Virus record (IMG/VR): IMGVR_UViG_3300042564_005549
Span: 17,705 to 81,704 of that record
Direction: 5' to 3' (one strand)
DNA: 64,000 nucleotides
DNA from: a virus
The stretch's first letter is position 1. Each line of letters starts with the position of its first letter. Below the pieces are notes generated by a model that saw nothing but the letters and a program-made list of their open reading frames with translations, did not search any database and was not told where the DNA came from. The position numbers and the translations under genes were made by a program. Positions 32,473 to 54,665 of the stretch are shown here, in pieces.

Positions 32473-32502
32473 AATTAAAATTAAAAAAGAATATAAATAA
32501 AA

Positions 32503-34170: not shown

Positions 34171-34195
34171 AAATAAAAAAACGTATTTATAATAA

Positions 34196-35380: not shown

Positions 35381-35416
35381 CGATAACATAAATTCTAAAA
35401 AGAATATTTATAACAT

Positions 35417-37573
35417 ATGAGTTTTTTACACGAAAATGAATCAGAACATATAGCTGCGAGAATCACCAACGAAGGTAGACAAAAAATTGCTGAAGGTAAT
35501 TTCAATATTGTCTATTTCCAAGTCGGAGATTCCGAATATGACTATAATTTCGAAGAGTATGATGGTACTTCAGGTACCACAAACCCATCTCAAAAGGTAT
35601 TCACACCTTTGGATAAAGATTCTATTGTAAAATACCCATACAAGTTATCAGAATCAACAGTTACAGGTACAACATTTGGTAACCCAATTCAAGTAGCTCA
35701 AATAGAAACTATTAGAAATGAAATGGGCGCTGCGGGATTTGTTTCGGCTTATTTAGAATTTGATGATACAACAGACCCTTGTACAGGAACAACCGTTGAA
35801 TGTTCAAATGAAAAGATACCGGTTTCGGCTTTATCAGGAACCACAACATTATATCTAACAGGAAACACATTTTCTGATTGTCAATATATAACAATTGCAT
35901 TTACTGAATTAATCGGTGCAGATGCGGTGATTTCAGGAACATCAACAAGTTTAATTTATAGAGTAACTAATTTTGTTTCAGGTTCATCTGTTAATACATT
36001 AACATTGGATAGAGCGACTCCAAATATGTCAAATATATGTTCAGGAGGTTTTGCAACTGTTATGTGTAACAAATGTAACCCATTTTTTCCTGGTCCATAT
36101 GAAACAGATTTAACTTGTTTACCAAACACACAAAACCCTGAAGACCAACAAGACCCTTGGACATTGAACATTGTGTGGAGTGAAAGACCTGCCGGTGTTA
36201 AAAACCAAGGTTCAGAAATTCAAGAATATGTTAGTGGTTACACAAGTAACGTATTCGTTTCAACAAAAGAATTTTTAGGATACGGTTCGTCATCGGGACA
36301 AACTGTAAACACAGGAACAACAATTACCAATTCATTTGGTGATTCGGTTGTTGTATTTCCTGAAGAACAACATAGTATAGCGATTATACATTATTCGGAA
36401 TTGAATACTGAAAGAGAACCTGAAAAATTCTTTAAGTATGAAGATTATATTAGTACTAATAATAGTCTTACTGATGCGTTATTATATGACACAGACGACC
36501 AACCAGTTACTGATTTAGATTACTTTGAGGTTTATATTCCATTTATTTATTATAATAGAAATACCGGTACCACAATAGGTGCAACATTCACAATGGATAC
36601 TACAGATTATTTTGTGAATTCAACCGCAATGGATACTAAATTAAATAAAATAAAGTACAGATACCTAATTGACGAAAGAGGATATAGAGTAGGTAGAGTT
36701 TATTATAATAACAAAATAATTGTATTTGATGACCAAGAGATTGTTGCAGTTTTAGATTACAAATCTAATAGAAAATATACATTACCAATTCCAAGAGTTT
36801 CTCAAGTTCCTGTTGATACTAAATGTAGCACCAATGGTAACCCATTAACACCACTTATGAGTGGAACTACAGGTCAAACTGTATTTGTTACATATCTTTT
36901 AGAATTTAGTGGGTCAACATCTTTACATTGTAACCACTATTCAAAAATAACAGGTACATCGTTAAATGCTGATATATCATTAAGATTCTCTGATGATGAT
37001 TGGGGACATATGAAATCTACAAAATGTGGATTTAAAGATGGTTACATTGCTGACAAATTATATGCATTAGTTCAATTGGTAGACACTGGTGACCAACCAC
37101 AAACTAATTTATGGACAAAGATTAATATTACATCGGACATCCCTAACCATACTACAGGATTAATTGACCCTGATAATTTAAAAGGTGCACGTTTTGTTAT
37201 CACAAATGATGATTATGATAATGGTACGATATATGACATTGAAGACCATTTAGGTGAATTACCCGACCAACCAGCACCATATGCAAACGGTAGTTTTTAT
37301 CAAACAACTCCTCAATTTGGTGACGAACAACCATTCCCTGGTAGTGTAAAATTGATTAGAGCTTCCGACTTAACTGTTATGAGATTCTTAGTTAATTTAC
37401 CAAATGGTGAATTTACAACAACACAAAACCCAAGTTATACCACAGGTAAAACTAAAAGAATTACTGAAGTTGCTTTACTTAACAGTAATAAAGAAGTTTT
37501 AGTAATCGGTAAAACACCAAAACCAATTCACAGAGTAGGAACTCAAGTATTTGCAGTTAAAATTGACCTCTAA
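35417..37573 (+). CDS. Tail/baseplate fibre-attachment protein (tail-collar DUF3751-like termini)
   Basis: N-terminal ITNEGRQKIA.G......F..GD and C-terminal ITEVALL......L.IGK..KPI.......KID motifs flank a large insert. Confidence 0.6.
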   Translation: MSFLHENESEHIAARITNEGRQKIAEGNFNIVYFQVGDSEYDYNFEEYDGTSGTTNPSQKVFTPLDKDSIVKYPYKLSESTVTGTTFGNPIQVAQIETIRNEMGAAGFVSAYLEFDDTTDPCTGTTVECSNEKIPVSALSGTTTLYLTGNTFSDCQYITIAFTELIGADAVISGTSTSLIYRVTNFVSGSSVNTLTLDRATPNMSNICSGGFATVMCNKCNPFFPGPYETDLTCLPNTQNPEDQQDPWTLNIVWSERPAGVKNQGSEIQEYVSGYTSNVFVSTKEFLGYGSSSGQTVNTGTTITNSFGDSVVVFPEEQHSIAIIHYSELNTEREPEKFFKYEDYISTNNSLTDALLYDTDDQPVTDLDYFEVYIPFIYYNRNTGTTIGATFTMDTTDYFVNSTAMDTKLNKIKYRYLIDERGYRVGRVYYNNKIIVFDDQEIVAVLDYKSNRKYTLPIPRVSQVPVDTKCSTNGNPLTPLMSGTTGQTVFVTYLLEFSGSTSLHCNHYSKITGTSLNADISLRFSDDDWGHMKSTKCGFKDGYIADKLYALVQLVDTGDQPQTNLWTKINITSDIPNHTTGLIDPDNLKGARFVITNDDYDNGTIYDIEDHLGELPDQPAPYANGSFYQTTPQFGDEQPFPGSVKLIRASDLTVMRFLVNLPNGEFTTTQNPSYTTGKTKRITEVALLNSNKEVLVIGKTPKPIHRVGTQVFAVKIDL

Positions 37574-37576
37574 CTA

Positions 37577-37605
37577 TTTACAAAACAAATAATATTATTT
37601 ATATA
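37577..37605 (+). promoter_or_regulatory. Sigma70-type promoter TTTACA-N17-TATATT
   Basis: Same architecture as the promoters at 4977 and 56645. Confidence 0.5.
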
Positions 37606-37612
37606 TTATTTT

Positions 37613-38224
37613 ATGGAGAACAATTTAAAAAACAAAGCAAAGATTTTGGGATTGGATATCTCAACCAAAACTATTGGCTGGGCATTATTCGATATTAATA
37701 GTTCCAAACTATTGGAGTTAACACACTTCTCACCAAAAATCAAACCACAACCGGAAGATAAAATTGAAGAATTGTTGTTAAAGGCTGAAGCTTTTAAAAA
37801 ACATCTTGAAGCTTATAGGAATATGGGTATCACGAGAGTGGTCATTGAAGAACCGTTATTACAATCAAATAACATTTATACCGTTGGTACTTTATTACGT
37901 TACAATACTTTGATTTTAAAGAATTGTTATGACGTGTTAGGAATCGTTCCAACATTCATCTCAACATATAATGCAAGAAAATTTGCCTTTCCTGATTTGG
38001 TTGGCGCAAATGATAAAGGTCGTAATGTGTTATTTGGTGGATACCCAAAAGACATCGACAAGAAACACGTAATTTGGGAGCACGTTAATAACGTATGTCC
38101 TGATGTTAAGTGGTTGTATGGTAAAACAGGAGCACTTAAAAAAGAAAATTACGATATGAGTGATGCCGCAACTGCTGTGATTGGATATGTTAATATGGTG
38201 AAGACAGAAAAATCCGGCAACTAA
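37613..38224 (+). CDS. RuvC-like Holliday junction resolvase
   Basis: ILGLD.S....GWA, VVIEEP and D..DA catalytic motifs. Confidence 0.8.
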   Translation: MENNLKNKAKILGLDISTKTIGWALFDINSSKLLELTHFSPKIKPQPEDKIEELLLKAEAFKKHLEAYRNMGITRVVIEEPLLQSNNIYTVGTLLRYNTLILKNCYDVLGIVPTFISTYNARKFAFPDLVGANDKGRNVLFGGYPKDIDKKHVIWEHVNNVCPDVKWLYGKTGALKKENYDMSDAATAVIGYVNMVKTEKSGN

Positions 38225-38262
38225 TATTTCACTTTTAAATAATTAAATAATATATTTATTAA

Positions 38263-38337
38263 TAGGACGGGACGTGAGCCTTAAAATTCACGTTTGGTTG
38301 GTGTTCCCTCGGAGTGGTGTCCGAGGGATTTTTTTTT
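38263..38337 (+). ncRNA. Candidate small RNA with its own promoter motif and terminator
   Basis: TATTTAT at 38253, hairpin acgtga/tcacgt, then the terminator hairpin; no credible ORF. Confidence 0.4.
38305..38337 (+). terminator. Rho-independent terminator
   Basis: Perfect 9-bp tccctcgga/tccgaggga stem followed by T9. Confidence 0.85.
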
Positions 38338-38364
38338 GTCCTTTTTTTTACTTATATTTTCCAT

Positions 38365-39306
38365 ATGGGTATATCTATCGACGATTACGAACCGATTATT
38401 GAGATTTTAGAAGATATTCTAGGGGACTATAGAATGCACAATGACTATAAAGGTCAAATGTCATTTGATTGTCCGGTTTGTTCGTATGAGTTAAAAGGAT
38501 TAGACCACGGAGACGGTAAAGGTAATTTAGAAGTAAACTACAGACATAACGTTTATAAATGTTGGGCTTGTAGTGAAGTTAATAATACTCACGGTTCTTT
38601 ACATAAATTAATTAAGAAATATGGGACAACCAAACATTTAAAAAGATATGAATTGTTGGTTCCCGAAGAAAGTTTTGAAAATGGAAAACCAAATTTTAAG
38701 GTTGTTAAATTACCCGAAGAATTTGTACCATTTTCTAAAGTTAGTGCCGGTTTAAAATTAACACACTACTATAAGACTGCGTTAAATTATGTCCGTAAAA
38801 GAAATATAACCGATGAGATGTTATACAAATATAACATTGGATTTTGTTATAGGGGACCATATAGCAATAGAATTATTATCCCTTCATATGATTCAGAAAA
38901 TAGGTTAAATTACTTTATTGCAAGGTCATATGAGGCAAACACTAAGTTTAAATATAAAAACCCTGAGGCACAAAAAGAAATAGTAATCTTCAACGAAAAT
39001 TTAATTGATTGGTTTATGCCAATCTATATTGTTGAGGGAGCATTTGATAGTATTTTTCTACCTAACTCAATTCCGATGTTAGGTAAAGTGATGGGTGAAA
39101 AATTATTTAGTTTATTATATGAGAAGGCATTAGAAGTTGTTGTGGTATTGGATGGAGATGCTTGGGAAAATTCTAAAAAAATATATCATAAGTTAAATGG
39201 TGGTAGATTATTTGGGAAAGTTTGGACAATAAAATTACCGTTAGATAAAGACATTGCTGACCTCCAAGGTAAATTAGGTGAATACGAAAAAATACAATTA
39301 GATTAA
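38365..39306 (+). CDS. DNA primase (Zn finger + TOPRIM)
   Basis: CPVC...CWAC, RIIIP, KYKNP, IVEGAFD and LDGDA motifs. Start moved to ATG 38365 because the listed start lies inside the terminator. Confidence 0.85.
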   Translation: MGISIDDYEPIIEILEDILGDYRMHNDYKGQMSFDCPVCSYELKGLDHGDGKGNLEVNYRHNVYKCWACSEVNNTHGSLHKLIKKYGTTKHLKRYELLVPEESFENGKPNFKVVKLPEEFVPFSKVSAGLKLTHYYKTALNYVRKRNITDEMLYKYNIGFCYRGPYSNRIIIPSYDSENRLNYFIARSYEANTKFKYKNPEAQKEIVIFNENLIDWFMPIYIVEGAFDSIFLPNSIPMLGKVMGEKLFSLLYEKALEVVVVLDGDAWENSKKIYHKLNGGRLFGKVWTIKLPLDKDIADLQGKLGEYEKIQLD

Positions 39307-39307
39307 T

Positions 39308-40165
39308 ATGAATTTAGTAGAAATCTCAAAAGAGATAAACAATTTATTAGAAGAGAGAAGAAAGGATTTAGAACTTACTTTTATTGAGGAAGAACACATT
39401 TATTATATGAAAGATATGAATGGTGTTTTGAGAAAAACATTTCCATCAGTATCTAAAGTAGTAAAGAAATTCCATAAAGCATTTGATGCTGAAGGTACCG
39501 CACTAAGAATGTGTAACGGTGACCCAATTGCTGCTCGAGAGTTACAGGAACAATGGAAAGCAACCGGACAGTATGCTACCAATATGGGTAGTCGTGTTCA
39601 CTTTGAATTAGAGAGTGATTTAGTACAAAGACACGAAGACTACAAAGAAGTTCGTAGACCAATTTTTGAATGTGACGAAACACAACTTACCAAAAGTGAT
39701 AATATGATTATTGCAGGTAAACAGTTTCTTGACTTAATGTTAGAAAGAGGTGCGATTCTTATTGATACAGAAATAGTGTTAGGTGATAATGAATTAGGAT
39801 ATACGGGTCAGCCGGATAAAATATGGTTGATGTCGAATAAAGAAGGTACTGACTTTGGTATTGTTGTTACCGATTGGAAAACCAATCAACCAAAAAACTT
39901 TGAAGTCCAACACTACACAGGTAGATTGTACCCACCATTCCAAGAGTATCACGATACTGCGTTAGGTCATTATTACATACAACTTCCACTTTACGCAAGA
40001 TTGTTGATAAAGATGTTAAAAGGAACCAAGTACGAAAATTTAAAATTATTAGGTTGTGTGATTGTATTATTAAAAGAAGATGGTACATTCGTAGAGTACA
40101 AAGTTCCGCCACAAATTAACAACACAATCCTTCAAATGGATTTAACAAAATATACAAAGAAATGA
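39308..40165 (+). CDS. PD-(D/E)XK exonuclease (RecB/Cas4-like fold)
   Basis: SV, G..VH, GQPD, DWKT and Q..LY motifs. Confidence 0.8.
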   Translation: MNLVEISKEINNLLEERRKDLELTFIEEEHIYYMKDMNGVLRKTFPSVSKVVKKFHKAFDAEGTALRMCNGDPIAARELQEQWKATGQYATNMGSRVHFELESDLVQRHEDYKEVRRPIFECDETQLTKSDNMIIAGKQFLDLMLERGAILIDTEIVLGDNELGYTGQPDKIWLMSNKEGTDFGIVVTDWKTNQPKNFEVQHYTGRLYPPFQEYHDTALGHYYIQLPLYARLLIKMLKGTKYENLKLLGCVIVLLKEDGTFVEYKVPPQINNTILQMDLTKYTKK

Positions 40166-40986
40166 TAAAGAAAATAATTCACATTGCTGATTTACATATT
40201 CGTACAATTCAAATGCACGAGTTGTATAAAAAACAATTTGATAGATTAATTGATGAGATTAAAGAACACTCAATTCAATGGACATCAGAAGGTATTGGAT
40301 GGGACGAAATTCGAATAGTAATCGCTGGTGACATTGCACACCAAAAGATTAATATATCTAATGAACAACTATTATTAACAAGTTGGTTCTTAAATAAATT
40401 ATCAGGATATGGTAAAGTAATTATCATACCGGGAAATCACGATTTCTTAGAAAATAATACAGAACGTATCGATAGTATCACACCTATCGTGGAATTATTG
40501 GATAACAAAAACATTACATACCTAAAAGATAGTGGTGATTACGTTGATACCGAAGGTAATGTCCAATGGGTTGTTTATTCATTATATCAACACAATGTTA
40601 GACCTGAATTCACTAAACAAGAAGGGTTATTAACAGTCGGATTATTTCACGGACCGATTCAAGGATTGTCAACTGATTTAGGTTTTGAGTTTGAGGATGC
40701 ATATGATAGATTAAACTTTGTTGATTTAGATTTATTATTATGTGGAGATATTCATAAGAGACAACAATGGGATTTACCTAACGGAGGAAAGGCGGTTATG
40801 GTTGGAAGTCTAATCCAACAAAACTTTGGCGAAACTATTAAACATCACGGATATGGAATCTACGATGTTAATACCAAGGATTATACATTCCACGATTTAC
40901 CAAACGACCAACCATTTATGCATTTTAAAATAACAGATATTAACGATATTGAAAATGAGCAAGAGGAACTTATTAACCTTGGGTGA
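40162..40986 (+). CDS. sbcD: Mre11/SbcD-like metallophosphoesterase nuclease (gp47-like)
   Basis: ADLH, AGD, GNHD, FHG, GDIH and GS..Q..FGE motifs. Confidence 0.85.
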   Translation: MIKKIIHIADLHIRTIQMHELYKKQFDRLIDEIKEHSIQWTSEGIGWDEIRIVIAGDIAHQKINISNEQLLLTSWFLNKLSGYGKVIIIPGNHDFLENNTERIDSITPIVELLDNKNITYLKDSGDYVDTEGNVQWVVYSLYQHNVRPEFTKQEGLLTVGLFHGPIQGLSTDLGFEFEDAYDRLNFVDLDLLLCGDIHKRQQWDLPNGGKAVMVGSLIQQNFGETIKHHGYGIYDVNTKDYTFHDLPNDQPFMHFKITDINDIENEQEELINLG

Positions 40987-41404
40987 TGAGTTTCTTGAGT
41001 ATTGCCGATTAAACGAAATTAAAGACGTTGAAAAATTGGCTAAAGAAACATTTCAAAGGGGTTTCACTATATTGAAGTATGGTGAGACCCCATACGGTAT
41101 TAAGGGTACCGATAAAGTTGTTGAAAAAGAAATTATCAAAGAGGTTGTTGTTGAAAAAATCGTAGAGGTAATTAAAGAAGTTCCCGTTGAAAAAATTGTG
41201 GAGGTGATTAAAGAAGTCCCTATTGAAATAGTCGGAGATACACAAATCATCACTAAGGAAGTTATAAAAGAAATAACTGTGGTGGATAATACCGAAATAG
41301 AAAAATTAAGAGAAGAGAATAATAAGTTAAACGAGGCTTTAAATAAATTTAATAAGGCAACGTTTATGAAAAATAGTGATTTGAATAATTTATATGGCGA
41401 ATAA
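40955..41404 (+). CDS. Hypothetical protein with VEKIVEVIKEVP repeats
   Basis: Charged Val/Ile repeat seen in the translation; probable ATG start at 40955. Confidence 0.65.
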   Translation: MSKRNLLTLGDEFLEYCRLNEIKDVEKLAKETFQRGFTILKYGETPYGIKGTDKVVEKEIIKEVVVEKIVEVIKEVPVEKIVEVIKEVPIEIVGDTQIITKEVIKEITVVDNTEIEKLREENNKLNEALNKFNKATFMKNSDLNNLYGE

Positions 41405-42635
41405 ATTTAAAATAGGATTTATTGGTTTAGGTAAGTTGGGTTTACCTTGTGCATTGGCAATTGATAATAAGGGACACGATGTGTGGGGTTATGATATTGA
41501 TAATACCGTCGAGGAAATTCTTAATGGTAAGAAACTACCTTACCTTGAAGAAGGGGCTGAGGATTTATTAAAGACTCACAATATCAAATACGGAACAGTA
41601 AAAGATGTTGTGAATCATTCTGATATAATATTTGTCCCAATCCAAACTCCTCACGATTATAAATTTGAAGGGTGTACAAGAATACCCGATGAAAGGTCAG
41701 ACTTTGATTACGAACCTTTAAAAAATGGAATTAAAACTCTATCTGATGAAATACTAAAACAGGATGGAGAAAAGATTGTGGTAATCATATCAACAGTTTT
41801 ACCCGGTACTATTGAAAGAGAAATAATGCCGATAATTGAAAGAAATGAAAATTTTATATTGTGTTATAACCCGTACTTCATTGCTATGGGAACAACAATA
41901 AACGATTTTTTAAATCCTGAATTCATATTATTTGGTTCTAAAGATAAAAGAGCATCGAAGTATGTTAAGAAGTTTTATGAAACATTACACGATAAACCAT
42001 TTTATCAAACGTCAATCAAAAATGCAGAATTAATTAAAGTTTCCTATAATACCTTTATTGGTATGAAGATAGTATTTGCTAATACGATTATGGAAATTTG
42101 TCATAAAACCGGTGCGAACATCGATGAAGTTATGGGTGGTTTGAAATTGGCAACGAACAGATTAATTTCCACCAAATATTTAAATGGAGGGATGGGAGAT
42201 GGAGGAGGATGTCACCCAAGAGATAACATAGCAATGAGTTGGTTGGCTAATAAATTAAACCTATCCCACAATTTTTTTGAAGATATTATGGAAGCAAGAG
42301 AAGAACAAACAGAATTCTTAATCGAATTATTAACACAACAACCAGGACCATATACAATCTTGGGTAAGACGTTTAAAGAAAATACCAATTTAACTTTGGG
42401 TTCACCATCAATGTTATTGGCTAATATGTTAACGGAGCAAGGAGTTACATTCCAACACTACGACCCATTTGTCGACACGGTTGAACCATATTTTGAAAAA
42501 GGAACATATATTGTAACCGTACCTCACGAACAATTTATAAATTTTATTTTCCCTTCAGGTTCGATTGTTATTGATGTTTGGAGAATCTTAGACATCAACG
42601 ACTCAACAGTTACACATATTAAAGTAGGTAACTAG
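41394..42635 (+). CDS. UDP-glucose/GDP-mannose dehydrogenase family protein
   Basis: GFIGLGKLGLP Rossmann motif, STVLPGT, AELIK...N, catalytic GGGCHPRD and LGKTFK. Confidence 0.9.
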   Translation: MANKFKIGFIGLGKLGLPCALAIDNKGHDVWGYDIDNTVEEILNGKKLPYLEEGAEDLLKTHNIKYGTVKDVVNHSDIIFVPIQTPHDYKFEGCTRIPDERSDFDYEPLKNGIKTLSDEILKQDGEKIVVIISTVLPGTIEREIMPIIERNENFILCYNPYFIAMGTTINDFLNPEFILFGSKDKRASKYVKKFYETLHDKPFYQTSIKNAELIKVSYNTFIGMKIVFANTIMEICHKTGANIDEVMGGLKLATNRLISTKYLNGGMGDGGGCHPRDNIAMSWLANKLNLSHNFFEDIMEAREEQTEFLIELLTQQPGPYTILGKTFKENTNLTLGSPSMLLANMLTEQGVTFQHYDPFVDTVEPYFEKGTYIVTVPHEQFINFIFPSGSIVIDVWRILDINDSTVTHIKVGN

Positions 42636-42686
42636 TTTTGATTTATCCATTTTTTTAGTTATATTTTTATAACAAAGAATATTATT

Positions 42687-42998
42687 ATGGATAAAATTTT
42701 ATTATGGTCACTCGCCGCTTATGGAATGACCTCAATTATTGTATGGGGTTCTATCTTTGAATCAACAAGAGAATTTATAAAAAGAAACTCAAAGTTTTTT
42801 GGGGACTTAGTTAGTTGTACTTTATGTACAAGTACTTGGGTTGGTTTTTTTATGTCATTAGCCTTAGGTGGATTAACAACTAAATTCTTCGATATACATT
42901 GGGTATTCGGAATCTTTTGGGACGGTATGTTCACGGCAGGTATTGTGTGGTCAATAAATGCAATCATCGAATTTTTTGAAGAAAGTAGATTAAAATAA
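42687..42998 (+). CDS. Small membrane protein with CxxC (DUF1360-like)
   Basis: Hydrophobic helices and an LVSCTLCTSTW motif. Confidence 0.65.
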   Translation: MDKILLWSLAAYGMTSIIVWGSIFESTREFIKRNSKFFGDLVSCTLCTSTWVGFFMSLALGGLTTKFFDIHWVFGIFWDGMFTAGIVWSINAIIEFFEESRLK

Positions 42999-43001
42999 TC
43001 T

Positions 43002-43961
43002 ATGAAATTACTTAAAGTAGGTTACAAGGTAATTGATTATTCAATAATCAAGGAACTTTATTATTACGTAACCAAAGAGTATTTTTTACGTGAACCAAAA
43101 TTATTTGAGTCACTAAAAATAAAGAATGGTGGTGATAAAAAGAATGCCACGTATGTTGAAGTAATCAAAGGTGATAAAGATAGTTTCTTCGATTTAACAC
43201 CTAACAGAAAAGATGAATGGGATTCAATTATCGATTATCTAAACGATAAATACAAGTCCCATATCAAACCGCCGAAAGAAGAGTCTTTTGATGATGAGGA
43301 TAAGAGGGTTAAGTTTTTTAAAAACCTAAATAAAAACGCCAAACCAGAATCAATCTTAGGAAGACTTTTACATTTCAATCCAATTAATGAGGATGGTGTT
43401 AGTGAGTTACTGACATTCGATGAACTAAAAAAACACCCTGATTTTGGTAAAACAAATAAAGATGATAGTTGTATTCCAAATAACGGAACGGGATGGAATA
43501 GGACAGTTGGGAAGTATTTTAAGTTCACATTAGTAAGAGATAAAGGAAAAACAACCGCATTTAAATTTGATGGGTATAATTTTGATTATTCTCACAAAAA
43601 TCGATATATTCGTAAAGATATACGAAAGGCATTAGAACACAGTAGATGTGCTCATTGTGGTGTGAAAGGTAAGAAGATGGAAATCGACCACAAAAATGGT
43701 AGATACAATGACGATAATGTGTTGAGTTCAGATACTCAAAACCTATCCGATTTTCAACCATTGTGTGGTAATTGTAATAAATTAAAAAGAAGTGCTTGTA
43801 AAAAGTGTAAAGAGACGGGACTTAGATATGACGCACAATTCTTAGGTTATCCGTTTTCACAATTAGATGGTGACGCCGTTTATAACGATGATTTAGGTTG
43901 TTCCGGTTGTTACCTTTTTGATTGTATGGTTTGGAAATTCAGTTGCGTAAAAAATATTTAA
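43002..43961 (+). CDS. HNH endonuclease of the IceA/NlaIII restriction family with N-terminal extension
   Basis: P..DG.S, NG..W.R, IRKDI, EIDHK.GR, Q..SDFQPLC...N..KR..CK.CKETG.R and GC.GCY..D match the IceA1/NlaIII pattern. Confidence 0.8.
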   Translation: MKLLKVGYKVIDYSIIKELYYYVTKEYFLREPKLFESLKIKNGGDKKNATYVEVIKGDKDSFFDLTPNRKDEWDSIIDYLNDKYKSHIKPPKEESFDDEDKRVKFFKNLNKNAKPESILGRLLHFNPINEDGVSELLTFDELKKHPDFGKTNKDDSCIPNNGTGWNRTVGKYFKFTLVRDKGKTTAFKFDGYNFDYSHKNRYIRKDIRKALEHSRCAHCGVKGKKMEIDHKNGRYNDDNVLSSDTQNLSDFQPLCGNCNKLKRSACKKCKETGLRYDAQFLGYPFSQLDGDAVYNDDLGCSGCYLFDCMVWKFSCVKNI

Positions 43962-43962
43962 T

Positions 43963-46299
43963 ATGGCAAATCCTTTTATAAAAGTAGAGTGGGAAGATAC
44001 ACCAGAAAATCTTACCCAAGAAAGAATCAAGAGAGTTAAAAGTTATTTCGAAAAGAAGTACAACTCCACCAGTGTTAAAATCATAACCAAGATATCCACA
44101 AACACACTTAATACACAATTAAGAACACTTGAGGCAACTGATAGTATTTTAGACCATCAGTATCAGAAGAAAATTGTTAAAGAATTTGTTACTGAAAACG
44201 ACCTTAACGTTAAGTGGGATTTACTTAATAGATTGGACGATAAAGTTAACGGTGAGATTGATAAATTAAATCAAAATAAAGTACGTTACAATAAATGGTT
44301 CATAAAGAAAATAGAGTTTTCTAATTTCTTATCATTTGGTGAAGACAATGTAATTGAATTTGAGAACTTAGATGGTATTACTGTTATTGAATCAACCCCA
44401 AGAAACTTTGGAGGTAAGTCTACCGCAACTGTTGACCTACTAATGTTCTTGTTCTTCAACGCAACCACAAAAACAAAAACCAATATTGAGGTATTCAATA
44501 AGTTTTCAGATAAAGACGAGGTAAAAGTAAAAGGATATGTGACAATTGACGGAGATAGTTACATCATATCAAGAACAATTACGAGAAAGAAAACAAAGGT
44601 TGGAGAATATAACGTTAAGAGTGATTTGGAATTCTTCAAAGTAACTGAAGACGGTACAATATCAAACTTATCGGGAGAACAAAGAAGAGAAACTGAAACA
44701 TTTATTGCATCTGCGATTGGTAGTCAAGAAGATTTTTTATCAACGATATTAACAACCGGTTATAACTTAGAAGAACTAATTGAATCTAAACCAACCGCAA
44801 GAGGTCAGATTCTTACAAAGTTTTTAGGGTTAGAAAGTTTAAAACAAAAAGAAGACATCTGTAAAGAGATGTATAATGACTGGTCTAAAAAATTAATTTC
44901 AAATACTCATAACGTAAAAGACTTAGAAGATACTAATGAAACTTTAACGGAGAGTATCGGTAATTCTGAAAATGAGATTTTAAGACTAACCGAAGTATTA
45001 TCCGATACTGAAAGGGCACTTACGATGTTGGAGGAAAGGAGAGACAATGCACTTAGTTCTAAAAATAACGATGTTGACCAAGAACTAATAAGAACTAACC
45101 CAACATTGTTGAAAGGTGAGATTGATGCATTAATACTTAAAAGGAATCAAAGTAAATCAAGTGCTGATAGTGTTGACCTTAAAGAACCATCGAAGTATTA
45201 TCACGAAGATGAACATAAAGAGTTGAGAGGTCAAATGGCGGACCTACAGGGCATTGAGTTCGCATACAAATATGAAAAAACTGAAAAGGAAAAGTTAATC
45301 AAACAATTAACAGAAGGAACAATTTGTCCTACTTGTAATAGAGCGTTGGATGAGGTTGACCATACTGAAGAAATTGAAAAGATTAAAAAAGAAATTGAGG
45401 ACATCATAAAAAACATTGAAACCAATAAATCTGAATTTGATAAATTAAAAGTTAAGTCAGATGAATTGGATTCTTTAAAAAGTGAGTTCGACAATTATGA
45501 AAGAGATAAACTTCGTAAAGCGAGATATGAATTGGAAGTTGAGCAAAGACAACTTGAGATTGATTCAAAACAGTCAAAATTAACTAACTACGATAATAAC
45601 AAAAAGAAATTAGAACACAACCAAAGAATTGATTCAGAAGTTGTTGCTTTAAGGACTAAGATTGAAACTGCAAACGCCGATATCCGTATCACTAATCAGT
45701 CAATCGAAAAACACAAGAATAATATCACCACGTCAAAAGAAAAGATTGGGGTTAATAACGATTTAATTACAAAAATTAAATCCGAAGAAGAATTGATTTA
45801 CGTGTTCAAAACATATCTAACCATATTTGGTAAGAATGGTATTTCTAAAGTTATTATTAAAAATATGATTCCATTATTAAATCAGGAGTTGTATCGATTA
45901 TTATCTGACAGTTGCTACTTTACATTGGAGTTAAACATTAATGATAAGAATGAATTAGAATTCTTAATGATTGATAATGAAACTAGAGTTGTTAAATCAT
46001 TATCGAGTGGTTCAGGTTACGAAAGAACCATCTCATCATTGGCTATCAGAAGTGTATTGACTAAGATATCATCATTACCTAAACCTAACATTGTGGTTAT
46101 GGATGAGGTCTTCGGTAAAATTGCCGACGACAATCTCGAAATGGTAGGGGAATTCTTTAAGAAAATCAAAAATTATTTTGAACATATATTAGTAATTTCT
46201 CATAACCCATTAATAAGAAACTGGTCGGACAATATCATTATGGTTAAAAAAGATGAAAATATATCCTCAGTTGAATATATTAACACCAAAATTTCTTAA
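43963..46299 (+). CDS. sbcC: Rad50/SbcC-like ATPase (gp46-like) with ~110-aa N-terminal extension
   Basis: IEFSNFLSFG, N.GGKST, coiled coil with CPTC zinc hook, SGSGYE signature, MDEVF and ISH. Confidence 0.9.
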   Translation: MANPFIKVEWEDTPENLTQERIKRVKSYFEKKYNSTSVKIITKISTNTLNTQLRTLEATDSILDHQYQKKIVKEFVTENDLNVKWDLLNRLDDKVNGEIDKLNQNKVRYNKWFIKKIEFSNFLSFGEDNVIEFENLDGITVIESTPRNFGGKSTATVDLLMFLFFNATTKTKTNIEVFNKFSDKDEVKVKGYVTIDGDSYIISRTITRKKTKVGEYNVKSDLEFFKVTEDGTISNLSGEQRRETETFIASAIGSQEDFLSTILTTGYNLEELIESKPTARGQILTKFLGLESLKQKEDICKEMYNDWSKKLISNTHNVKDLEDTNETLTESIGNSENEILRLTEVLSDTERALTMLEERRDNALSSKNNDVDQELIRTNPTLLKGEIDALILKRNQSKSSADSVDLKEPSKYYHEDEHKELRGQMADLQGIEFAYKYEKTEKEKLIKQLTEGTICPTCNRALDEVDHTEEIEKIKKEIEDIIKNIETNKSEFDKLKVKSDELDSLKSEFDNYERDKLRKARYELEVEQRQLEIDSKQSKLTNYDNNKKKLEHNQRIDSEVVALRTKIETANADIRITNQSIEKHKNNITTSKEKIGVNNDLITKIKSEEELIYVFKTYLTIFGKNGISKVIIKNMIPLLNQELYRLLSDSCYFTLELNINDKNELEFLMIDNETRVVKSLSSGSGYERTISSLAIRSVLTKISSLPKPNIVVMDEVFGKIADDNLEMVGEFFKKIKNYFEHILVISHNPLIRNWSDNIIMVKKDENISSVEYINTKIS

Positions 46300-46338
46300 T
46301 TTCGTTTATATTTTGTAACTTTATCCAAAACACTTATT

Positions 46339-47016
46339 ATGACCGCAAAGGAATACAACAGCTTTGGTCTATACGCTAAAGACCGTGGAATTAGCTCATT
46401 AACCTTACATAATTTCAACAAAGGTATTGAGAATAGTTTAACTCCATATATCTTGGAGGAAAGACAAATGAATGTAACTGCAATGGACGTTTTCTCTCGT
46501 TTGATGATGGAACGTATCATTTGGGTTGCTGGTGAGGTTAACGACCATATGTCAACAGTCGTACAGGCTCAGTTGATGTTCTTGGATAGTATTGACCACA
46601 ACGACATCACGATGCATATTGATAGTCCGGGTGGTTCTGTTAAATCAGGACTATCAATGGTAAATGTTATGGATTACATCAAATCTGACATCAGAACTAT
46701 TTGTACGGGTATGGCGGCGTCTATGGGTTCAGTACTATTAGGTGCAGGAACTAAAGGTAAACGTAGTTCATTGGAAGATTCTGAAATTATGTTACACCAA
46801 TCATCAGGTGGAGCGGTTGGGAATATCCAAGACGCTGAAATCACTATGGTTTGGTGGAAAAGAAAAAATGATAGATTATTTGAACTTTTGGGTGAATATT
46901 GTGGGAAGACCGCAGAACAGGTTAAAAACGACGCCTCGAGGGATTTATGGTTATCTGCTCAAGGAGCTCTCGATTACGGACTAATCGATGAGGTAGTTAA
47001 AAAGAAACAAAAGTAA
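46339..47016 (+). CDS. clpP: ATP-dependent Clp protease proteolytic subunit
   Basis: DVFSRL..ERII, SPGGSV, AASMG (Ser), MLHQ (His) and RD.WL (Asp). Confidence 0.95.
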   Translation: MTAKEYNSFGLYAKDRGISSLTLHNFNKGIENSLTPYILEERQMNVTAMDVFSRLMMERIIWVAGEVNDHMSTVVQAQLMFLDSIDHNDITMHIDSPGGSVKSGLSMVNVMDYIKSDIRTICTGMAASMGSVLLGAGTKGKRSSLEDSEIMLHQSSGGAVGNIQDAEITMVWWKRKNDRLFELLGEYCGKTAEQVKNDASRDLWLSAQGALDYGLIDEVVKKKQK

Positions 47017-47021
47017 GATAA

Positions 47022-47045
47022 AAGGGGACTAAATGTCCCCTTCTT
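47022..47045 (+). terminator. Hairpin, probable terminator
   Basis: aaggggac/gtcccctt stem after clpP; short U-tract. Confidence 0.55.
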
Positions 47046-47068
47046 CATATTTATAAGAAAACCCAAAT

Positions 47069-47413
47069 ATGAAGATTAATAAGACCGACATTCTATTGAT
47101 TTTGATTGTATTCCTGGCGGGGTATAGTATCTTCCAAATGAAAGGTATTAAAACTGACGTTGCAGGATACAATGCAAAGATTGATTCAATCCAAAATGAG
47201 ATTGATTCGGTTCAGTTGGAAAATGTAAAAATAACTGAACAAATTACTACAATTGATAAGGAAATTGATGTAGTAGATAAGAACATAAATAATGTTACAA
47301 AAAACATTACAATTATTAAAAAACAAACCGATGAAAAAATTGATTCTGTTAACAATTATAACTTTAGTGACCTTGAAAAGTTTTTCACAGACCGTTACAA
47401 AGACCAACATTGA
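47069..47413 (+). CDS. Membrane-anchored coiled-coil protein (i-spanin-like architecture)
   Basis: N-terminal TM helix followed by a coiled coil; TATTTAT upstream. Confidence 0.65.
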   Translation: MKINKTDILLILIVFLAGYSIFQMKGIKTDVAGYNAKIDSIQNEIDSVQLENVKITEQITTIDKEIDVVDKNINNVTKNITIIKKQTDEKIDSVNNYNFSDLEKFFTDRYKDQH

Positions 47414-47747
47414 TACTATAGTTCCGTTAAAAGTACCGGTTGCAAAATTGGTAATTAAAGACCTAATCAAAGGAGATGGTGCAGTTGTAGAAATCAAGGA
47501 ATTAAATAAAGTTATCGGACTTAAAGACGAACAATTAAACTTGTTCAAACAAAAAGATACACTTAAAGACCAAAAGATTTCTAACCTTGAATTGATTATC
47601 ACTAAAAAGGATGAACAATTTGGTTTAGAACGAGCTAAATCTGAAAGTTTATTAAAAGAACTTAAAGGACAAAGAAGAAAGACATTTTTATATAAGGTAG
47701 GTTCTTTTGTTGGTATAATTGCAACATCAGCATTATTATTAAAATAA
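47331..47747 (+). CDS. Secreted coiled-coil protein with C-terminal hydrophobic helix
   Basis: MKKLILLTIITLVTLKSFS|Q signal peptide from ATG 47331; overlaps the upstream gene by 83 nt. Confidence 0.65.
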   Translation: MKKLILLTIITLVTLKSFSQTVTKTNIDTIVPLKVPVAKLVIKDLIKGDGAVVEIKELNKVIGLKDEQLNLFKQKDTLKDQKISNLELIITKKDEQFGLERAKSESLLKELKGQRRKTFLYKVGSFVGIIATSALLLK

Positions 47748-47748
47748 A

Positions 47749-48390
47749 ATGAAGAAATATCTCGATATTAGAAATATTGTAATTGTCATTTTAATACTCA
47801 TAGCCCTTTTGGAATTCTTAAATCCAAAAGGGTTTATGCCTAATAGAACTAAGTTAGTTGTACAAACAGATTCAATACCATATGCAGTTCACGACACCAT
47901 CCCTGAAGAAGTTGAGGTTGAAGTGGAAGTTGAAGTGCCGGTTGAAGTAGAAGTTGAAAGAAGAGTAGAAGTACCCGTGATTCAACAAGTCGACACTACT
48001 GAAATACTAAAAATATATTTTGCAAAAGTTCCACATAAAGAGGTCCTAACATTACCAAATAATCAGGGTACAGTTACTATTACAGATACTATATCTAAAA
48101 ATAGTGTAGTGAATAGAAAGTTTATTGCTGACGTTAAGAAGATGATTATAAACGACACCATTTATACTCCTGAACCTCGTAAAACACAACTTTATCTTGG
48201 TTTTGATGCTAAGTTTGATAAACCAAACGTAGTTAACTTGATGGGGTTGGGAATGGTACTAAAAACCAAAGATGAGAAGTTATATAAAATTGGTGTCGGG
48301 TTAGCGAATAATGTAACTGATGGTACAAATGGTAAACTTTCTCCGTATCTTGGTGGTGGTGTATATTGGAAAGTTAGACTAAAAAAGTAA
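47749..48390 (+). CDS. Membrane-anchored protein with EV repeats and C-terminal beta strands
   Basis: N-terminal TM helix, EVEVEVEVPVEVE and C-terminal YLGGGVYWK. Confidence 0.65.
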   Translation: MKKYLDIRNIVIVILILIALLEFLNPKGFMPNRTKLVVQTDSIPYAVHDTIPEEVEVEVEVEVPVEVEVERRVEVPVIQQVDTTEILKIYFAKVPHKEVLTLPNNQGTVTITDTISKNSVVNRKFIADVKKMIINDTIYTPEPRKTQLYLGFDAKFDKPNVVNLMGLGMVLKTKDEKLYKIGVGLANNVTDGTNGKLSPYLGGGVYWKVRLKK

Positions 48391-48407
48391 AACATTTATT
48401 AATTTAT

Positions 48408-48863
48408 ATGAATACGTACATTTTATTCATATACGGTAATTTTGAAGACCGAGAGGATATCGAATTTTTCTGCGCGGAAGTGTTTCCGAGTGAATCAATA
48501 GTTTCCGTTAAGTATATAATTGAAAATAATCAGAACATTATTATTATATTTGATTCAGATAAAGAAAAAATGGAATTGGCAAAAGAACTTTTTTCATTTT
48601 TAACTCCTGAACATATTAAATTTTATTTTCTTTTTGAGAGGGAAAAATTAGTTACCGCCCACATACCTGAGAGTATGAAGGATTTTATTTTTAAACCGGC
48701 GGAACTTGACGAAATAAATGTTATGAAAATAGACTTTCACAGAACCTCAAAAGAAGACCCCCCATCCTTTAGTCTTGATGACATATTAGAAAAAATTGAA
48801 TCTATGGGGGTTTCAAGTTTGACCCCCGAGGAAAAAAATTTTCTTGATAATTTTGAAAATTAA
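48408..48863 (+). CDS. Hypothetical protein with C-terminal DUF6576-like helix pair
   Basis: LDDILEKI...G..SLT.EEK.FL motif. Confidence 0.6.
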   Translation: MNTYILFIYGNFEDREDIEFFCAEVFPSESIVSVKYIIENNQNIIIIFDSDKEKMELAKELFSFLTPEHIKFYFLFEREKLVTAHIPESMKDFIFKPAELDEINVMKIDFHRTSKEDPPSFSLDDILEKIESMGVSSLTPEEKNFLDNFEN

Positions 48864-48904
48864 AAAAATTTGCGTATCTTTAGAGTATCTAAACTTACTA
48901 ACAA

Positions 48905-49714
48905 ATGCGCAAAAAACACATCATCATCAACACGGAGGAGATACAACAGTATCTTAAAGATTTAAAGAAAATCCCTGTTATTACTCATCAAAGACAAGAT
49001 GAAATTTTTGAACAATTAATCAAAAACGAACTTCCAAAAAAAGATTTGGAGGGTATGAAAGAAGAATTAGTTGTAGGAAATTTAAGATTTGTAGTATCAG
49101 TTGCGAAGTCTTATCAGAATCAAGGATTAGATTTACTCGATTTAATTTCAGAAGGTAACATTGGCTTATTAAAGGCTATTGAAAGATTTGACCCCACATC
49201 GGGAGTTAAGTTTATTTCGTATGCCGTATGGTGGGTGAAACAATCAATTATGGCATCACTTAACGAGTATGCAAGAACGATTAGAATTCCTTCAAACCTT
49301 GTACAAGAAGCACAGAAAGCTAAGAAAGAATTTAGCGATGAGGAAAGTTACTACATCAAATATAGTGACGAACCAAACGGAACTAGTTTACCGTATTGTG
49401 TTGGGTTGTATGATGAGATTAATGAAGAGGGAGACCAACTAATCGATATCATCAGAAATCCAAACGAAGAGAATCCTGAAAATATTCTTAATACAAAAGA
49501 AGAAATCCGTAAACGAGTTAATCGTGTTTTGAGCGTGTTAGATGATAGAGAAAAAGTAATTATTGAGAAGTACTTTGGGTTGAATGGTGTTGAATCCAAC
49601 TTAGAAGACCTCGGAGAAGAATTTAATTGTACTAAAGAACGTATTAGACAACTTAAAGATAAAGCAATAAAAAAATTGAGAAACGAGAGTTATTCTCTAA
49701 TAAACTATTTATAA
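48905..49714 (+). CDS. RNA polymerase sigma70 factor (Bacteroidota RpoD-like, no region 1.1)
   Basis: NLRFVVSVAK.YQNQG, DLISEGNIGL.KA.ERFD, KFISYAVWW and region 4 ERIRQ...KA..KL. Confidence 0.92.
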   Translation: MRKKHIIINTEEIQQYLKDLKKIPVITHQRQDEIFEQLIKNELPKKDLEGMKEELVVGNLRFVVSVAKSYQNQGLDLLDLISEGNIGLLKAIERFDPTSGVKFISYAVWWVKQSIMASLNEYARTIRIPSNLVQEAQKAKKEFSDEESYYIKYSDEPNGTSLPYCVGLYDEINEEGDQLIDIIRNPNEENPENILNTKEEIRKRVNRVLSVLDDREKVIIEKYFGLNGVESNLEDLGEEFNCTKERIRQLKDKAIKKLRNESYSLINYL

Positions 49715-49723
49715 AAAGAAATT

Positions 49724-50002
49724 ATGAAAAAATTTTTAGAACAAAACTTTACCATAATCATATTGGTAATTGCGGTATTAACATTTTTTAAAAGCTGTAG
49801 TGATAGTCGAGAATTGTCAAAAGTAAGAAAAGACATTCAAGCTATTAAAGATTCAACTTATACAAAGGATGAACTAAACCAAGAATTAAAAATTATGGGT
49901 TTAGAGGCTGAGAAAAGAATGATTCAAGCAACGGATAGAAAAATATTAGACGTTCAAAGACAAACTCAAATTGAGGAAGAAATAAAGAAATTAAGAAAAT
50001 AG
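49724..50002 (+). CDS. Small membrane-anchored or lipoprotein coiled-coil protein
   Basis: Hydrophobic N-terminus ending FKSC, then a coiled coil. Confidence 0.6.
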   Translation: MKKFLEQNFTIIILVIAVLTFFKSCSDSRELSKVRKDIQAIKDSTYTKDELNQELKIMGLEAEKRMIQATDRKILDVQRQTQIEEEIKKLRK

Positions 50003-50005
50003 TAA

Positions 50006-51493: not shown

Positions 51494-51741
51494 AAGAAGG
51501 GTCGGAAACCACATTTTTATCGACACCATCCCCTACGACCTTGGAGGAATTTGAGTCTGATGAACTTTATTTAGAGTCAGACGATGAAAATCCTTTACAA
51601 ATAATATACGATTTAGATAACGATAAGGTCATCGTACCAACATCAGACGAAGAGTCTGTGATTGAGGAGCAAACGCTAAATCCAGCAAGAAAAACATTTA
51701 GAAGGAATGTTGGAAATTCAAGACGTAGAAATTCTCGATAA
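51469..51741 (+). CDS. Probable -1 frameshift extension of the 50006 gene
   Basis: The -1 frame is open from the A10 run to TAA 51739-51741 and has the same acidic composition; it has only a TTG start of its own. Confidence 0.5.
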   Translation, partial: KKKSSEKLEEGSETTFLSTPSPTTLEEFESDELYLESDDENPLQIIYDLDNDKVIVPTSDEESVIEEQTLNPARKTFRRNVGNSRRRNSR

Positions 51742-52841: not shown

Positions 52842-52842
52842 T

Positions 52843-54664: not shown

Positions 54665-54665
54665 T

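What the first reader, a model, noticed from the sequence alone, without database searches (positions are those of the whole stretch)
43002..43961. NlaIII/IceA-type restriction endonuclease with no adjacent methylase, in DNA that appears purged of CATG
Seen: the C-terminal ~200 aa match the IceA1/NlaIII motif series. Established: NlaIII cuts CATG. Seen: I found no CATG in the stretches read closely (the first ~5 kb and spot checks elsewhere). In the cases checked, His before a G-starting codon is CAC and His-Met is CAT ATG. No methylase gene is adjacent. Inference: the phage may use a restriction enzyme against host or competitor DNA and protect itself by site avoidance. The ~120-aa N-terminal extension is unexplained.
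Basis: partly seen in the sequence, partly recalled or inferred. Interest (0 to 1): 0.75.

Follow-up and report, generated by a model that had tools for sequence, protein, structure and literature searches.

The report
Methylase-free CATG nuclease, CATG-free phage
A giant lake-water phage carries an NlaIII-type (CATG) restriction nuclease with no partner methylase and has no CATG anywhere in its DNA, so the enzyme should cut host or rival-phage DNA but not its own.

Summary
ORF 43002-43961 is an ICEA/NlaIII-family HNH nuclease (Pfam 3.3e-30) with conserved catalytic residues, under strong purifying selection (dN/dS ~0.05-0.07). The whole 81.7-kb contig, about 24% of a ~330-kb jumbo phage, has 0 CATG against ~213 expected.

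- GATC is also absent (0/244), with no GATC nuclease found.
- A D12 adenine methylase lies 15 kb downstream. It is conserved in relatives that lack ICEA and keep CATG, so it is not the partner.

Among ~90 related contigs, the gene lies in one hypervariable slot between the DUF1360 and Rad50-like genes, in four separate clades. Three clades carry it alone and have zero CATG. One carries it with an adjacent PF01555 methylase and keeps a few sites (6/170). Relatives without the gene keep CATG at O/E ~0.4-0.85, with two exceptions (L087, L097).

Complete purges of other 4-bp palindromes also occur in this family with no visible nuclease, so I could not tell whether the purge preceded the gene or followed it.

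This is a new variant of a known kind: restriction without modification. Earlier reports of this scan noted the same thing on other DNA.

The parts
43002..43961 (+). Long-form ICEA/NlaIII-family restriction endonuclease gene (319 aa), with no partner methylase
   Evidence: Pfam PF05315 at 3.3e-30. The residues D229, H230, N259, K262, R263, C266, C269, C300 and C303 are invariant in 79 homologues. dN/dS is 0.05-0.07. The AF2 model has pLDDT 90.
43002..43301 (+). N-terminal domain (about residues 1-100) found only in the long form; function unknown
   Evidence: It is conserved in all long-form homologues (G7, Y21, K25, F35, W73, L80, Y84) and has dN/dS 0.04-0.09. It has no Pfam, Atlas or convincing fold match. 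It is absent from short forms and from bacterial genomes.
43281..43583 (+). Winged-helix-like middle domain (about residues 94-194), shared with short-form NlaIII-type enzymes; probably the DNA-recognition part
   Evidence: VIA-align gives Z 3.5-4.4 to many winged-helix DNA-binding domains. These matches are weak but consistent. Short forms align from about residue 100-130.
43596..43958 (+). HNH / His-Me finger catalytic domain with Cys-rich zinc sites (about residues 199-319)
   Evidence: VIA-align gives Z 4.0-5.1 to Cap5, phage GVE2 HNH, McrA, Cascade-HNH and T4 endonuclease VII. The Pfam HNH match is sub-threshold. The motif C216-x2-C219 ... D229-H230 ... N259 is conserved.
42687..42998 (+). 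DUF1360 membrane-protein gene; conserved upstream border of the variable slot
   Evidence: PF07098 at 3e-5. It is present upstream of the slot in 79 of 80 relatives.
43963..46299 (+). Rad50/SbcC-like (T4 gp46-like) ATPase gene; conserved downstream border of the slot
   Evidence: Weak Pfam matches to SbcC_Walker_B and the Rad50 zinc hook. It shares 61-88% identity with more than 90 related contigs.
40162..40986 (+). Mre11/SbcD-like phosphoesterase gene (gp47-like partner of the Rad50-like protein)
   Evidence: PF00149 Metallophos at 2.4e-11.
58709..59545 (+). D12-class N6-adenine DNA methyltransferase; a conserved family gene, not the nuclease's partner
   Evidence: PF02086 at 1.3e-19. It is present at 69-94% identity in 28 of 40 relatives whether or not they carry ICEA or keep CATG.
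1..64000 (.). CATG-free (and GATC-free) genome sequence: the proposed self-immunity
   Evidence: 0 CATG and 0 GATC in 81.7 kb, against 213 and 244 expected. Avoidance is synonymous at the codon level.

Best explanation
The gene encodes an active type IIP restriction endonuclease of the NlaIII/IceA1 family that recognises CATG. It is carried by a ~330-kb freshwater jumbo phage without any cognate methyltransferase. The phage genome is immune because it holds no CATG at all, and selection keeps it that way.

The gene sits in a hypervariable cargo slot between the phage's Mre11-like and Rad50-like nuclease genes and is probably co-transcribed with them. During infection the enzyme would cut any unmethylated CATG-bearing DNA in the cell. 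That means the host chromosome and, above all, co-infecting relatives, which carry about 2 CATG per kb. The Mre11/Rad50-type exonuclease could then process the fragments.

Shown here: family membership, conserved catalytic residues, purifying selection, absence of sites, absence of a partner methylase, and the gene-site association across clades.

Inferred: CATG specificity of this particular protein, its activity, its targets, and whether the purge preceded or followed acquisition of the gene.
For: 1. Family. Pfam ICEA at 105.7 bits. The family is defined by R.NlaIII and IceA1 (PMC5714182), and iceA1 is reported as a functional CATG enzyme (Xu 2002, cited in PMC2816704).

2. Intact and selected. 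The HNH and Cys residues are invariant in 79 homologues. dN/dS is 0.05-0.07 in all three domains, while dS is about 1 to the closest relatives.

3. No sites. CATG counts are 0/213 in this contig and 0/200, 0/512 and 0/222 in three other ICEA-bearing contigs. Despite near-saturated synonymous divergence, no CATG has arisen in any member of the window clade (0/433 pooled). The purge is therefore actively maintained.

4. Association on a 92-row Rad50 tree. ICEA occurs in four clades, always in the same slot.
- Three solitary clades have 0 CATG: the window clade; L059; and L177/178/180 (0/57, 0/41, 0/53, with GATC only mildly reduced).
- The clade with an adjacent PF01555 methylase (L004/L175/L193) keeps 2-6 sites per ~58 expected.
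- ICEA-less neighbours keep CATG: L040/L049 have 46/68 and 43/65; L039/L113 have 35/60 and 26/36.
- None of the other 72 related records searched has the gene.

5. Outside the family. Most short-form viral ICEA genes have a small [DS]PPY methylase within about 200 bp. L020 lacks one and has 0 CATG, while L014 and L017, which carry a >=70%-identical nuclease, are paired and keep CATG (14/45, 10/48).

6. The distal D12 methylase is conserved in ICEA-less, CATG-rich relatives, so it is not the partner.

7. Precedents. PacI is a solitary HNH enzyme in a bacterium whose genome lacks its site (PMC3488263). Chlorovirus restriction enzymes are reported to degrade host DNA within minutes of infection (PMC7019647).
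Against: - No biochemical data exist for this protein, and no structure of any family member is solved, so specificity rests on family and genomic correlation.
- L087/G072, the sister of ICEA-positive L059, has 0/141 CATG with no ICEA on its 55-kb contig (only 17% of that genome). L097/G080 has 18/251.
- Complete purges with no cognate nuclease found are common in this phage family. GATC is purged in at least 4 lineages including this one, ACGT in 2, plus AGCT and TCGA. Host restriction could therefore have removed CATG first.
- If hosts carry a CATG R-M system, host DNA would be methylated and resistant, which narrows the useful targets.
- With only four independent contrasts the formal sign test cannot reach significance (median p 0.25).
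- The broad solitary-versus-paired comparison across unrelated loci is noisy (Mann-Whitney p 0.10, Fisher p 0.047).
Confidence: 0.6

Rival explanations
1. Host restriction came first. Hosts of these lineages carry CATG-specific R-M systems that purged CATG from the phage, just as GATC, ACGT, AGCT and TCGA were purged in relatives. The ICEA gene is later cargo of a recombination hotspot. It can be tolerated only in genomes that are already CATG-free, and it may add little function.
For: - Total purges occur without any matching phage nuclease: GATC is 0 in this clade and in L054, L083, L090, L091, L098 and L110/111; ACGT is 0/110 in G080; AGCT is 0/87 and 0/68 in G029 and G037.
- No DpnII or MutH family gene was found, even in the 93%-complete G093.
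- L087 is CATG-free without ICEA on its contig.
- The slot carries many kinds of cargo.
Against: - The gene is under strong purifying selection in all domains, so it is not a neutral passenger.
- The clade with ICEA plus a methylase is also strongly depleted (6/170), which fits a purge that follows acquisition of an R-M pair.
- CATG loss in L177-180 is specific to CATG, with GATC at 15-24 of 44-62.
- This rival concerns the order of events only. It still requires the enzyme's compatibility with a CATG-free genome.
Confidence: 0.25
2. The protein is not a CATG-cutting restriction enzyme. It is a diverged HNH nuclease with another job, such as a free-standing homing endonuclease, a nickase, a DNA-packaging or repair factor, or an enzyme of altered specificity. 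Under this view the CATG-free genomes are coincidental.
For: - It lies between conserved genes in a variable slot, as free-standing homing endonuclease genes do.
- The long form has an extra N-terminal domain of unknown function, found only in this phage family.
- Identity to short-form enzymes is only 30-45%.
- No biochemical data exist.
Against: - It scores 80 bits above the ICEA gathering threshold.
- The three solitary-ICEA clades (four with the near-purged methylase-paired clade) all fall on (near-)CATG-free genomes, while only 2 of the ICEA-less lineages in the Rad50 tree do.
- The one clade with an adjacent methylase keeps residual CATG, as expected for a true R-M pair.
- The other occupants of the slot include R-M pairs rather than homing genes.
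Confidence: 0.08
3. This is a separated R-M system. The D12 adenine methyltransferase 15 kb downstream is the cognate CATG methylase and protects the phage.
For: - A D12-class methyltransferase is present at 58709-59545. From my own recollection, not checked here, M.NlaIII belongs to this class.
- Separated R-M systems are documented (PMC3488263).
Against: - The methylase is present at 69-94% identity in 28 of 40 relatives regardless of ICEA, including CATG-rich ones.
- It is 94% identical between the window and G004, while their ICEA proteins are about 40% identical, so the two genes have different histories.
- Where an ICEA-linked methylase is seen, it is a PF01555 beta-class enzyme or a motif-identified [DS]PPY / C5-type gene rather than D12; the one nearby D12 gene, in L015, lies about 2 kb away.
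- With a protective methylase there would be no reason to remove all ~860 expected sites.
Confidence: 0.04

Closest known systems
R.NlaIII (Neisseria lactamica) and IceA1/HpyI (Helicobacter pylori); Pfam PF05315; His-Me finger family 27 of PMC5714182
   Same: Same protein family by HMM. Same HNH/Cys-rich catalytic core. By inference, the same 4-bp CATG target.
   Different: The known enzymes are about 200-230 aa and sit beside a cognate methylase. This one has an extra ~100-aa N-terminal domain, has no partner methylase, is carried by a phage, and relies on the absence of sites.
PacI (Pseudomonas alcaligenes), a solitary HNH restriction enzyme (PDB 3LDY; discussed in PMC3488263)
   Same: An HNH restriction enzyme with no methylase, whose carrier genome lacks the recognition site.
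   Different: PacI has an 8-bp AT-only site that is rare by base composition in its bacterial host. Here a 4-bp site expected about 860 times per genome has been removed by selection, in a virus.
Chlorovirus R-M systems such as CviAII of PBCV-1 (PMC7019647)
   Same: A virus-encoded restriction enzyme used offensively against host DNA. From my own recollection, not from a text read here, CviAII also recognises CATG.
   Different: Chloroviruses protect their own DNA with cognate methylases and package the enzymes in the virion. Here there is no methylase and nothing is known about packaging.
Restriction-site (palindrome) avoidance in phage genomes (PMC6286503)
   Same: A complete or strong lack of short palindromic sites, achieved through synonymous codon choice.
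   Different: Avoidance is normally read as escape from host enzymes. Here the matching enzyme is encoded by the phage itself.
T4 host-DNA breakdown: endonucleases II/IV followed by the gp46/gp47 exonuclease (my own knowledge, not tested here)
   Same: A phage endonuclease spares phage DNA and cuts other DNA, and is encoded with Rad50/Mre11-type nuclease genes.
   Different: T4 tells self from non-self by hydroxymethylcytosine. This phage would do so by lacking the sequence.

Membership tests
ICEA / NlaIII restriction endonuclease family (Pfam PF05315) | Match to the family HMM above the curated threshold | tested here: met
   105.7 bits against a cut-off of 24, E 3.3e-30, residues 160-318. 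534 homologues were found in the 1.84-billion-protein library.
ICEA / NlaIII restriction endonuclease family (Pfam PF05315) | HNH / His-Me catalytic residues and zinc-binding cysteines intact | tested here: met
   D229, H230, N259, K262, R263, C266, C269, C300 and C303 are invariant, and C216 nearly invariant, in 79 sequences.
ICEA / NlaIII restriction endonuclease family (Pfam PF05315) | beta-beta-alpha-metal fold of the catalytic domain | tested here: inconclusive
   The AF2 model has pLDDT 90. The best matches are HNH nucleases, but only at Z 4-5 and Foldseek E > 0.3. No family member has a solved structure.
ICEA / NlaIII restriction endonuclease family (Pfam PF05315) | Cleavage at CATG | not testable with these tools
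   The evidence is indirect only. Solitary carriers have 0 CATG, methylase-paired carriers keep a few sites, and non-carriers keep many.
Type II restriction-modification system | A cognate methyltransferase of the same specificity, normally adjacent | tested here: not met
   There is no room in the slot: the gaps are 3 nt and 1 nt. No PF01555 match exists on the contig. The distal D12 enzyme is a family gene that is independent of ICEA. Relatives L004, L175 and L193 do have an adjacent PF01555 or SPPY-motif methylase.
Free-standing HNH homing endonuclease | A long asymmetric target in the cognate empty allele; presence or absence between conserved genes | tested here: inconclusive
   The presence/absence pattern between conserved genes is met. 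However, the family is a type IIP restriction family, the slot also holds R-M pairs, and the CATG association argues for a 4-bp target.

The most novel reading that the evidence does not exclude
Restriction without modification may be a recurrent evolved strategy of large phages. R-M cassettes land in a recombination hotspot between the Mre11-like and Rad50-like genes. The phage then purges the site from its several-hundred-kb genome, and the methylase is discarded. What remains is a pure weapon against hosts and, above all, against co-infecting relatives. If so, part of the palindrome avoidance in phage genomes that is attributed to host restriction is self-inflicted.
Probability: 0.35. Interest if true: 0.8.

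Novelty: new variant of a known kind. Interest (0 to 1): 0.68.

Why it matters
If the enzyme is active, self/non-self discrimination here is written into the genome sequence itself rather than into a DNA modification. That would be a minimal one-gene weapon that a virus can use against host DNA and against closely related competitors.

It would also change how site avoidance in phage genomes is read. A missing palindrome could point to the phage's own nuclease, not only to host defences.

The phage family offers a natural series for testing how such a state evolves:
- an empty slot;
- nuclease plus methylase, with few sites left;
- nuclease alone, with no sites.

The long-form enzyme is also a candidate new CATG-specific reagent with an extra domain of unknown function.

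Tried and rejected
Contexts of the database homologues P0006-P0019 were recovered only in part, through the search for related loci.

Searches that found nothing or could not run:
- tblastn of the protein against 50,697 GenBank phage records found no match.
- PDB sequence search found no relative.
- Foldseek gave nothing at E <= 0.001.
- The ESM Atlas gave no usable hit for residues 1-125.
- Folding the N-terminal 100 residues alone gave pLDDT 42, too poor to search with.
Contigs were fetched and counted locally instead.
- No RNA holder was listed among public runs, so expression was not examined.
- Phrase searches of the paper library found no report of a phage-encoded solitary restriction enzyme protected by site avoidance. 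This is a limited search.

Ideas tested and rejected:
- GATC loss caused by a phage DpnII/MboI-type or Sau3AI/MutH-type nuclease: no match in five GATC-free contigs, one of them 93% complete.
- A PvuII-fold nuclease explaining the CATG-free, ICEA-less contig G072: no match, and that search's controls did not ring either. The contig-specific ORFs of G072 are a GIY-YIG-type gene and a fibre-like protein.
- The 'cluster 8' slot protein as an AGCT nuclease: L040 and L049 have 0 AGCT, but L088 carries the same protein without the purge, and it has no Pfam match.

Other limits:
- The loosened motif scan for methylases is noisy. It reclassified the L210 cluster, so the broad solitary-versus-paired statistic is only indicative.
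- The sigma-70 promoter scan was no better than shuffles.

Full report
**What is at the coordinates**

The ORF at 43002-43961 (+) encodes 319 aa. It matches Pfam ICEA (PF05315) at E 3.3e-30, 105.7 bits against a gathering score of 24, over residues 160-318. A sub-threshold HNH match covers residues 216-262. PF05315 is the family of the type II restriction enzymes NlaIII and IceA1 (PMC5714182, family 27), and iceA1 is cited as a functional CATG enzyme (PMC2816704, citing Xu et al. 2002).

No PDB entry is related by sequence. An AlphaFold2 model built on a 79-sequence alignment is confident (pLDDT 90) and shows three parts:
- An alpha/beta N-terminal domain (about residues 1-90) with no convincing structural match.
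- A winged-helix-like domain (about residues 94-194; Z 3.5-4.4 to many DNA-binding winged helices).
- An HNH domain (about residues 199-319; Z 4-5 to Cap5, McrA, GVE2 HNH and T4 endonuclease VII). These Z scores are low, so they are only consistent with the HNH fold and do not prove it.

The catalytic and zinc-binding residues are conserved: D229, H230, N259, K262, R263, C266, C269, C300 and C303 are invariant, and C216 nearly invariant, across 79 homologues. dN/dS against orthologues is 0.05-0.07 in each of the three parts, while dS is about 1. The gene is therefore functional and constrained.

**The site purge**

CATG is absent from the 64-kb window, against 231 +/- 14 matches in dinucleotide shuffles. 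It is also absent from the whole 81.7-kb contig, against 213 expected by a second-order Markov model. The contig is an IMG/VR virus record that CheckV rates 24% complete, which implies a genome of about 330 kb and about 860 expected sites.

Avoidance works through synonymous codon choice:
- His before a G-starting codon is CAT 0 times and CAC 65 times; elsewhere it is 136 and 89.
- No codon ending in C precedes Met in 444 cases; in an ICEA-less relative the figure is 37 of 261.
- NCA|TGN never occurs.

**Methylases**

The gene has no adjacent methylase. It starts 3 nt after the DUF1360 stop and its stop codon ends 1 nt before the Rad50-like start. No PF01555 gene is on the contig.

A D12-class adenine methylase lies at 58709-59545. 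It occurs at 69-94% identity in 28 of 40 related contigs, including all three that are nearly complete. Its presence does not depend on ICEA or on CATG content. It is 94% identical between the window and G004, whose ICEA proteins are only about 40% identical. It is a conserved gene of the phage family and not the nuclease's partner. Its target is unknown.

**The phage family and the slot**

The neighbouring Rad50-like gene recovers more than 90 related contigs of up to 335 kb. The DNA is held in lake-water and freshwater metagenome runs from many studies.

In these contigs the stretch between the DUF1360 gene and the Rad50-like gene varies from 11 to 2595 bp. It holds interchangeable cargo:
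- nothing at all;
- an unknown 170-240-aa protein, in 38 loci;
- several apparent R-M pairs, including an EcoRI-like nuclease with a DPPY methylase, and N6_N4-type or NPPF methylases next to small unknown proteins;
- the ICEA gene.

An Mre11-like phosphoesterase gene lies 2 kb upstream of the slot. No terminator-like site appears until after ClpP.

**Does CATG loss track the gene?**

Yes. Of 75 related viral records searched over their whole length, only three carry ICEA. A metagenome scan added more carriers. On a 92-row Rad50 tree the gene falls in four separate clades, always in the same slot:

| Clade | Methylase beside ICEA | CATG observed/expected |
|---|---|---|
| Window clade (9 rows) | none | 0/433 pooled; 0/512 in the 160-kb contig G002 |
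| L059/G004 | none | 0/222 |
| L177, L178, L180 | none | 0/57, 0/41, 0/53 (GATC 18/62, 15/44, 24/60) |
| L004, L175, L193 | 311-aa PF01555 methylase (1.7e-32) | 6/170 over G003; 2-6 per ~58 in the loci |

ICEA-less neighbours on the tree keep CATG: L040/L049 have 46/68 and 43/65, and L039/L113 have 35/60 and 26/36. ICEA-less loci in general have O/E of about 0.4-0.85.

Because dS to the nearest relatives is about 1, CATG would have reappeared many times if it were neutral. The purge is therefore being maintained.

With only four independent contrasts the sign test cannot reach significance. The effect is nevertheless all-or-none.

**Beyond the family**

Most short-form ICEA genes in viral contigs have a 230-260-aa [DS]PPY methylase within about 200 bp. 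L020 lacks one and has 0 CATG, while L014 and L017, which carry a >=70%-identical nuclease, are paired and retain CATG. A dereplicated comparison of 26 clusters gives zero CATG in 3 of 7 solitary and 1 of 19 paired clusters (Fisher p 0.047). The motif-based calling of methylases is noisy, so this is only indicative.

The long form is monophyletic (support 98), with the methylase-paired clade nested inside it. It makes up about 9 of 534 family clusters in 1.84 billion representative proteins. It was not found in about 185,000 species genomes, where only short forms matched.

**What limits the interpretation**

- L087/G072, the sister of ICEA-positive L059, is CATG-free (0/141) with no ICEA, no PvuII-fold gene and no other candidate on its 55-kb contig, which covers 17% of that genome. 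L097/G080 is strongly depleted (18/251).
- Complete purges of other palindromes are common in this family with no matching nuclease found: GATC in at least four lineages, ACGT (0/110 in G080), AGCT (0/87 and 0/68 in G029 and G037) and TCGA. No DpnII or MutH family gene turned up, even in a 93%-complete GATC-free genome.

Host restriction can therefore erase a 4-bp site in these phages, and CATG may have been erased before the gene arrived. The methylase-paired clade with few remaining sites fits the opposite order just as well: an R-M pair is acquired, the sites are purged, and the methylase is lost. I cannot decide between the two orders. Either way the solitary enzyme can exist only in a CATG-free genome.

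**Mechanism proposed**

The protein is a CATG-specific type IIP nuclease made during infection together with the Mre11/Rad50-type nuclease genes. It would cut unmethylated CATG in host DNA and in co-infecting phages; relatives carry about 2 sites per kb. The phage is spared because it has no sites. This resembles three known cases:
- chlorovirus restriction enzymes that degrade host DNA, where the virus protects itself by methylation (PMC7019647);
- PacI, a solitary HNH enzyme in a bacterium whose genome lacks its 8-bp site (PMC3488263);
- T4 endonucleases II/IV with gp46/47 (my own knowledge, not tested here).

The role of the N-terminal domain is unknown. It is conserved, it evolves under constraint, and it is specific to this phage family.

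**Earlier notes of this scan**

One search lists earlier reports of the same pairing on other DNA (e1-5852046, e1-5765227, e1-5392425). It also lists analogous cases with other nuclease folds. I used these only as leads. The PvuII-fold lead was tested on G072 and found nothing.

**Verdict**

This is a new variant of a known kind.

Noticed in passing
window 1-64000 (whole contig G000): GATC is as completely absent as CATG (0/244 expected), also through codon choice: Asp before a C-starting codon is GAT 0 times and GAC 155 times. No DpnII/MboI or MutH/Sau3AI family gene was found in five GATC-free relatives, one of them 93% complete.
   Followed up: partly
G029/G037 (L143-L148), G080 (L136-L139), L112, L063/L065/L066: Different lineages of the same phage family have each fully purged a different 4-bp palindrome. 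AGCT is 0/87 and 0/68 in G029 and G037. ACGT is 0/110 in G080 and 0/21 in L112. TCGA is 0-1 per 12-24 expected in L063/65/66. No matching nuclease was identified.
   Followed up: partly
window 42999-43962 and the same position in L037-L116: The gap between the DUF1360 and Rad50-like genes is a cargo hotspot of 11-2595 bp. It holds apparent R-M pairs (an EcoRI-like nuclease with a DPPY methylase in L061/81/82; NPPF or N6_N4 methylases with small unknown proteins), an HNH/zinc-finger-like gene in L073, or nothing.
   Followed up: partly
L101:9271-9999 and 37 other loci (slot 'cluster 0'): The commonest slot occupant is an unknown 170-240-aa protein with no Pfam family. Its sequence hints at a PD-(D/E)xK-like nuclease motif, judged by eye only.
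   Followed up: no
window 58709-59545: A D12 adenine methyltransferase is conserved at 69-94% identity across the family, yet it sits in a genome with neither GATC nor CATG. Its target motif and purpose are unknown. The clade of relatives that lacks it has normal GATC content.
   Followed up: partly
L210, L212, L221, L240 (metagenome contigs): Contigs that look like bacterial chromosome (HAD hydrolase and transaldolase neighbours) carry a short-form ICEA gene and are CATG-free (0/114 pooled) with normal GATC. A C5-type methylase lies 1.3-2.5 kb away in three of them. This may be a CATG-free bacterium.
   Followed up: partly
L019:9905-10771, L224:4586-5380: ICEA homologues of 264-288 aa lie next to an NCLDV-type major capsid protein gene in giant-virus-like contigs. 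CATG is only moderately depleted there (O/E 0.30-0.47).
   Followed up: no
G003 (L140-L142), G072 (L133-L135): GTAC is over-represented (429 against 258 expected, and 309 against 202) in two CATG-depleted contigs.
   Followed up: no
window, whole contig: CCAG and CTGG are at about 40% of Markov expectation (58/151 and 67/153), but CCWGG itself is not depleted (16/19 and 14/17). CTAG is at 34/129.
   Followed up: partly
window 41394-42635: A UDP-glucose/GDP-mannose dehydrogenase gene lies just upstream of the slot. A close homologue is found at this position only in L037, L038 and L039 (L063/65/66 give only a distant, ~28%-identical match), so it is further variable cargo between the Mre11-like and Rad50-like genes.
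   Followed up: no
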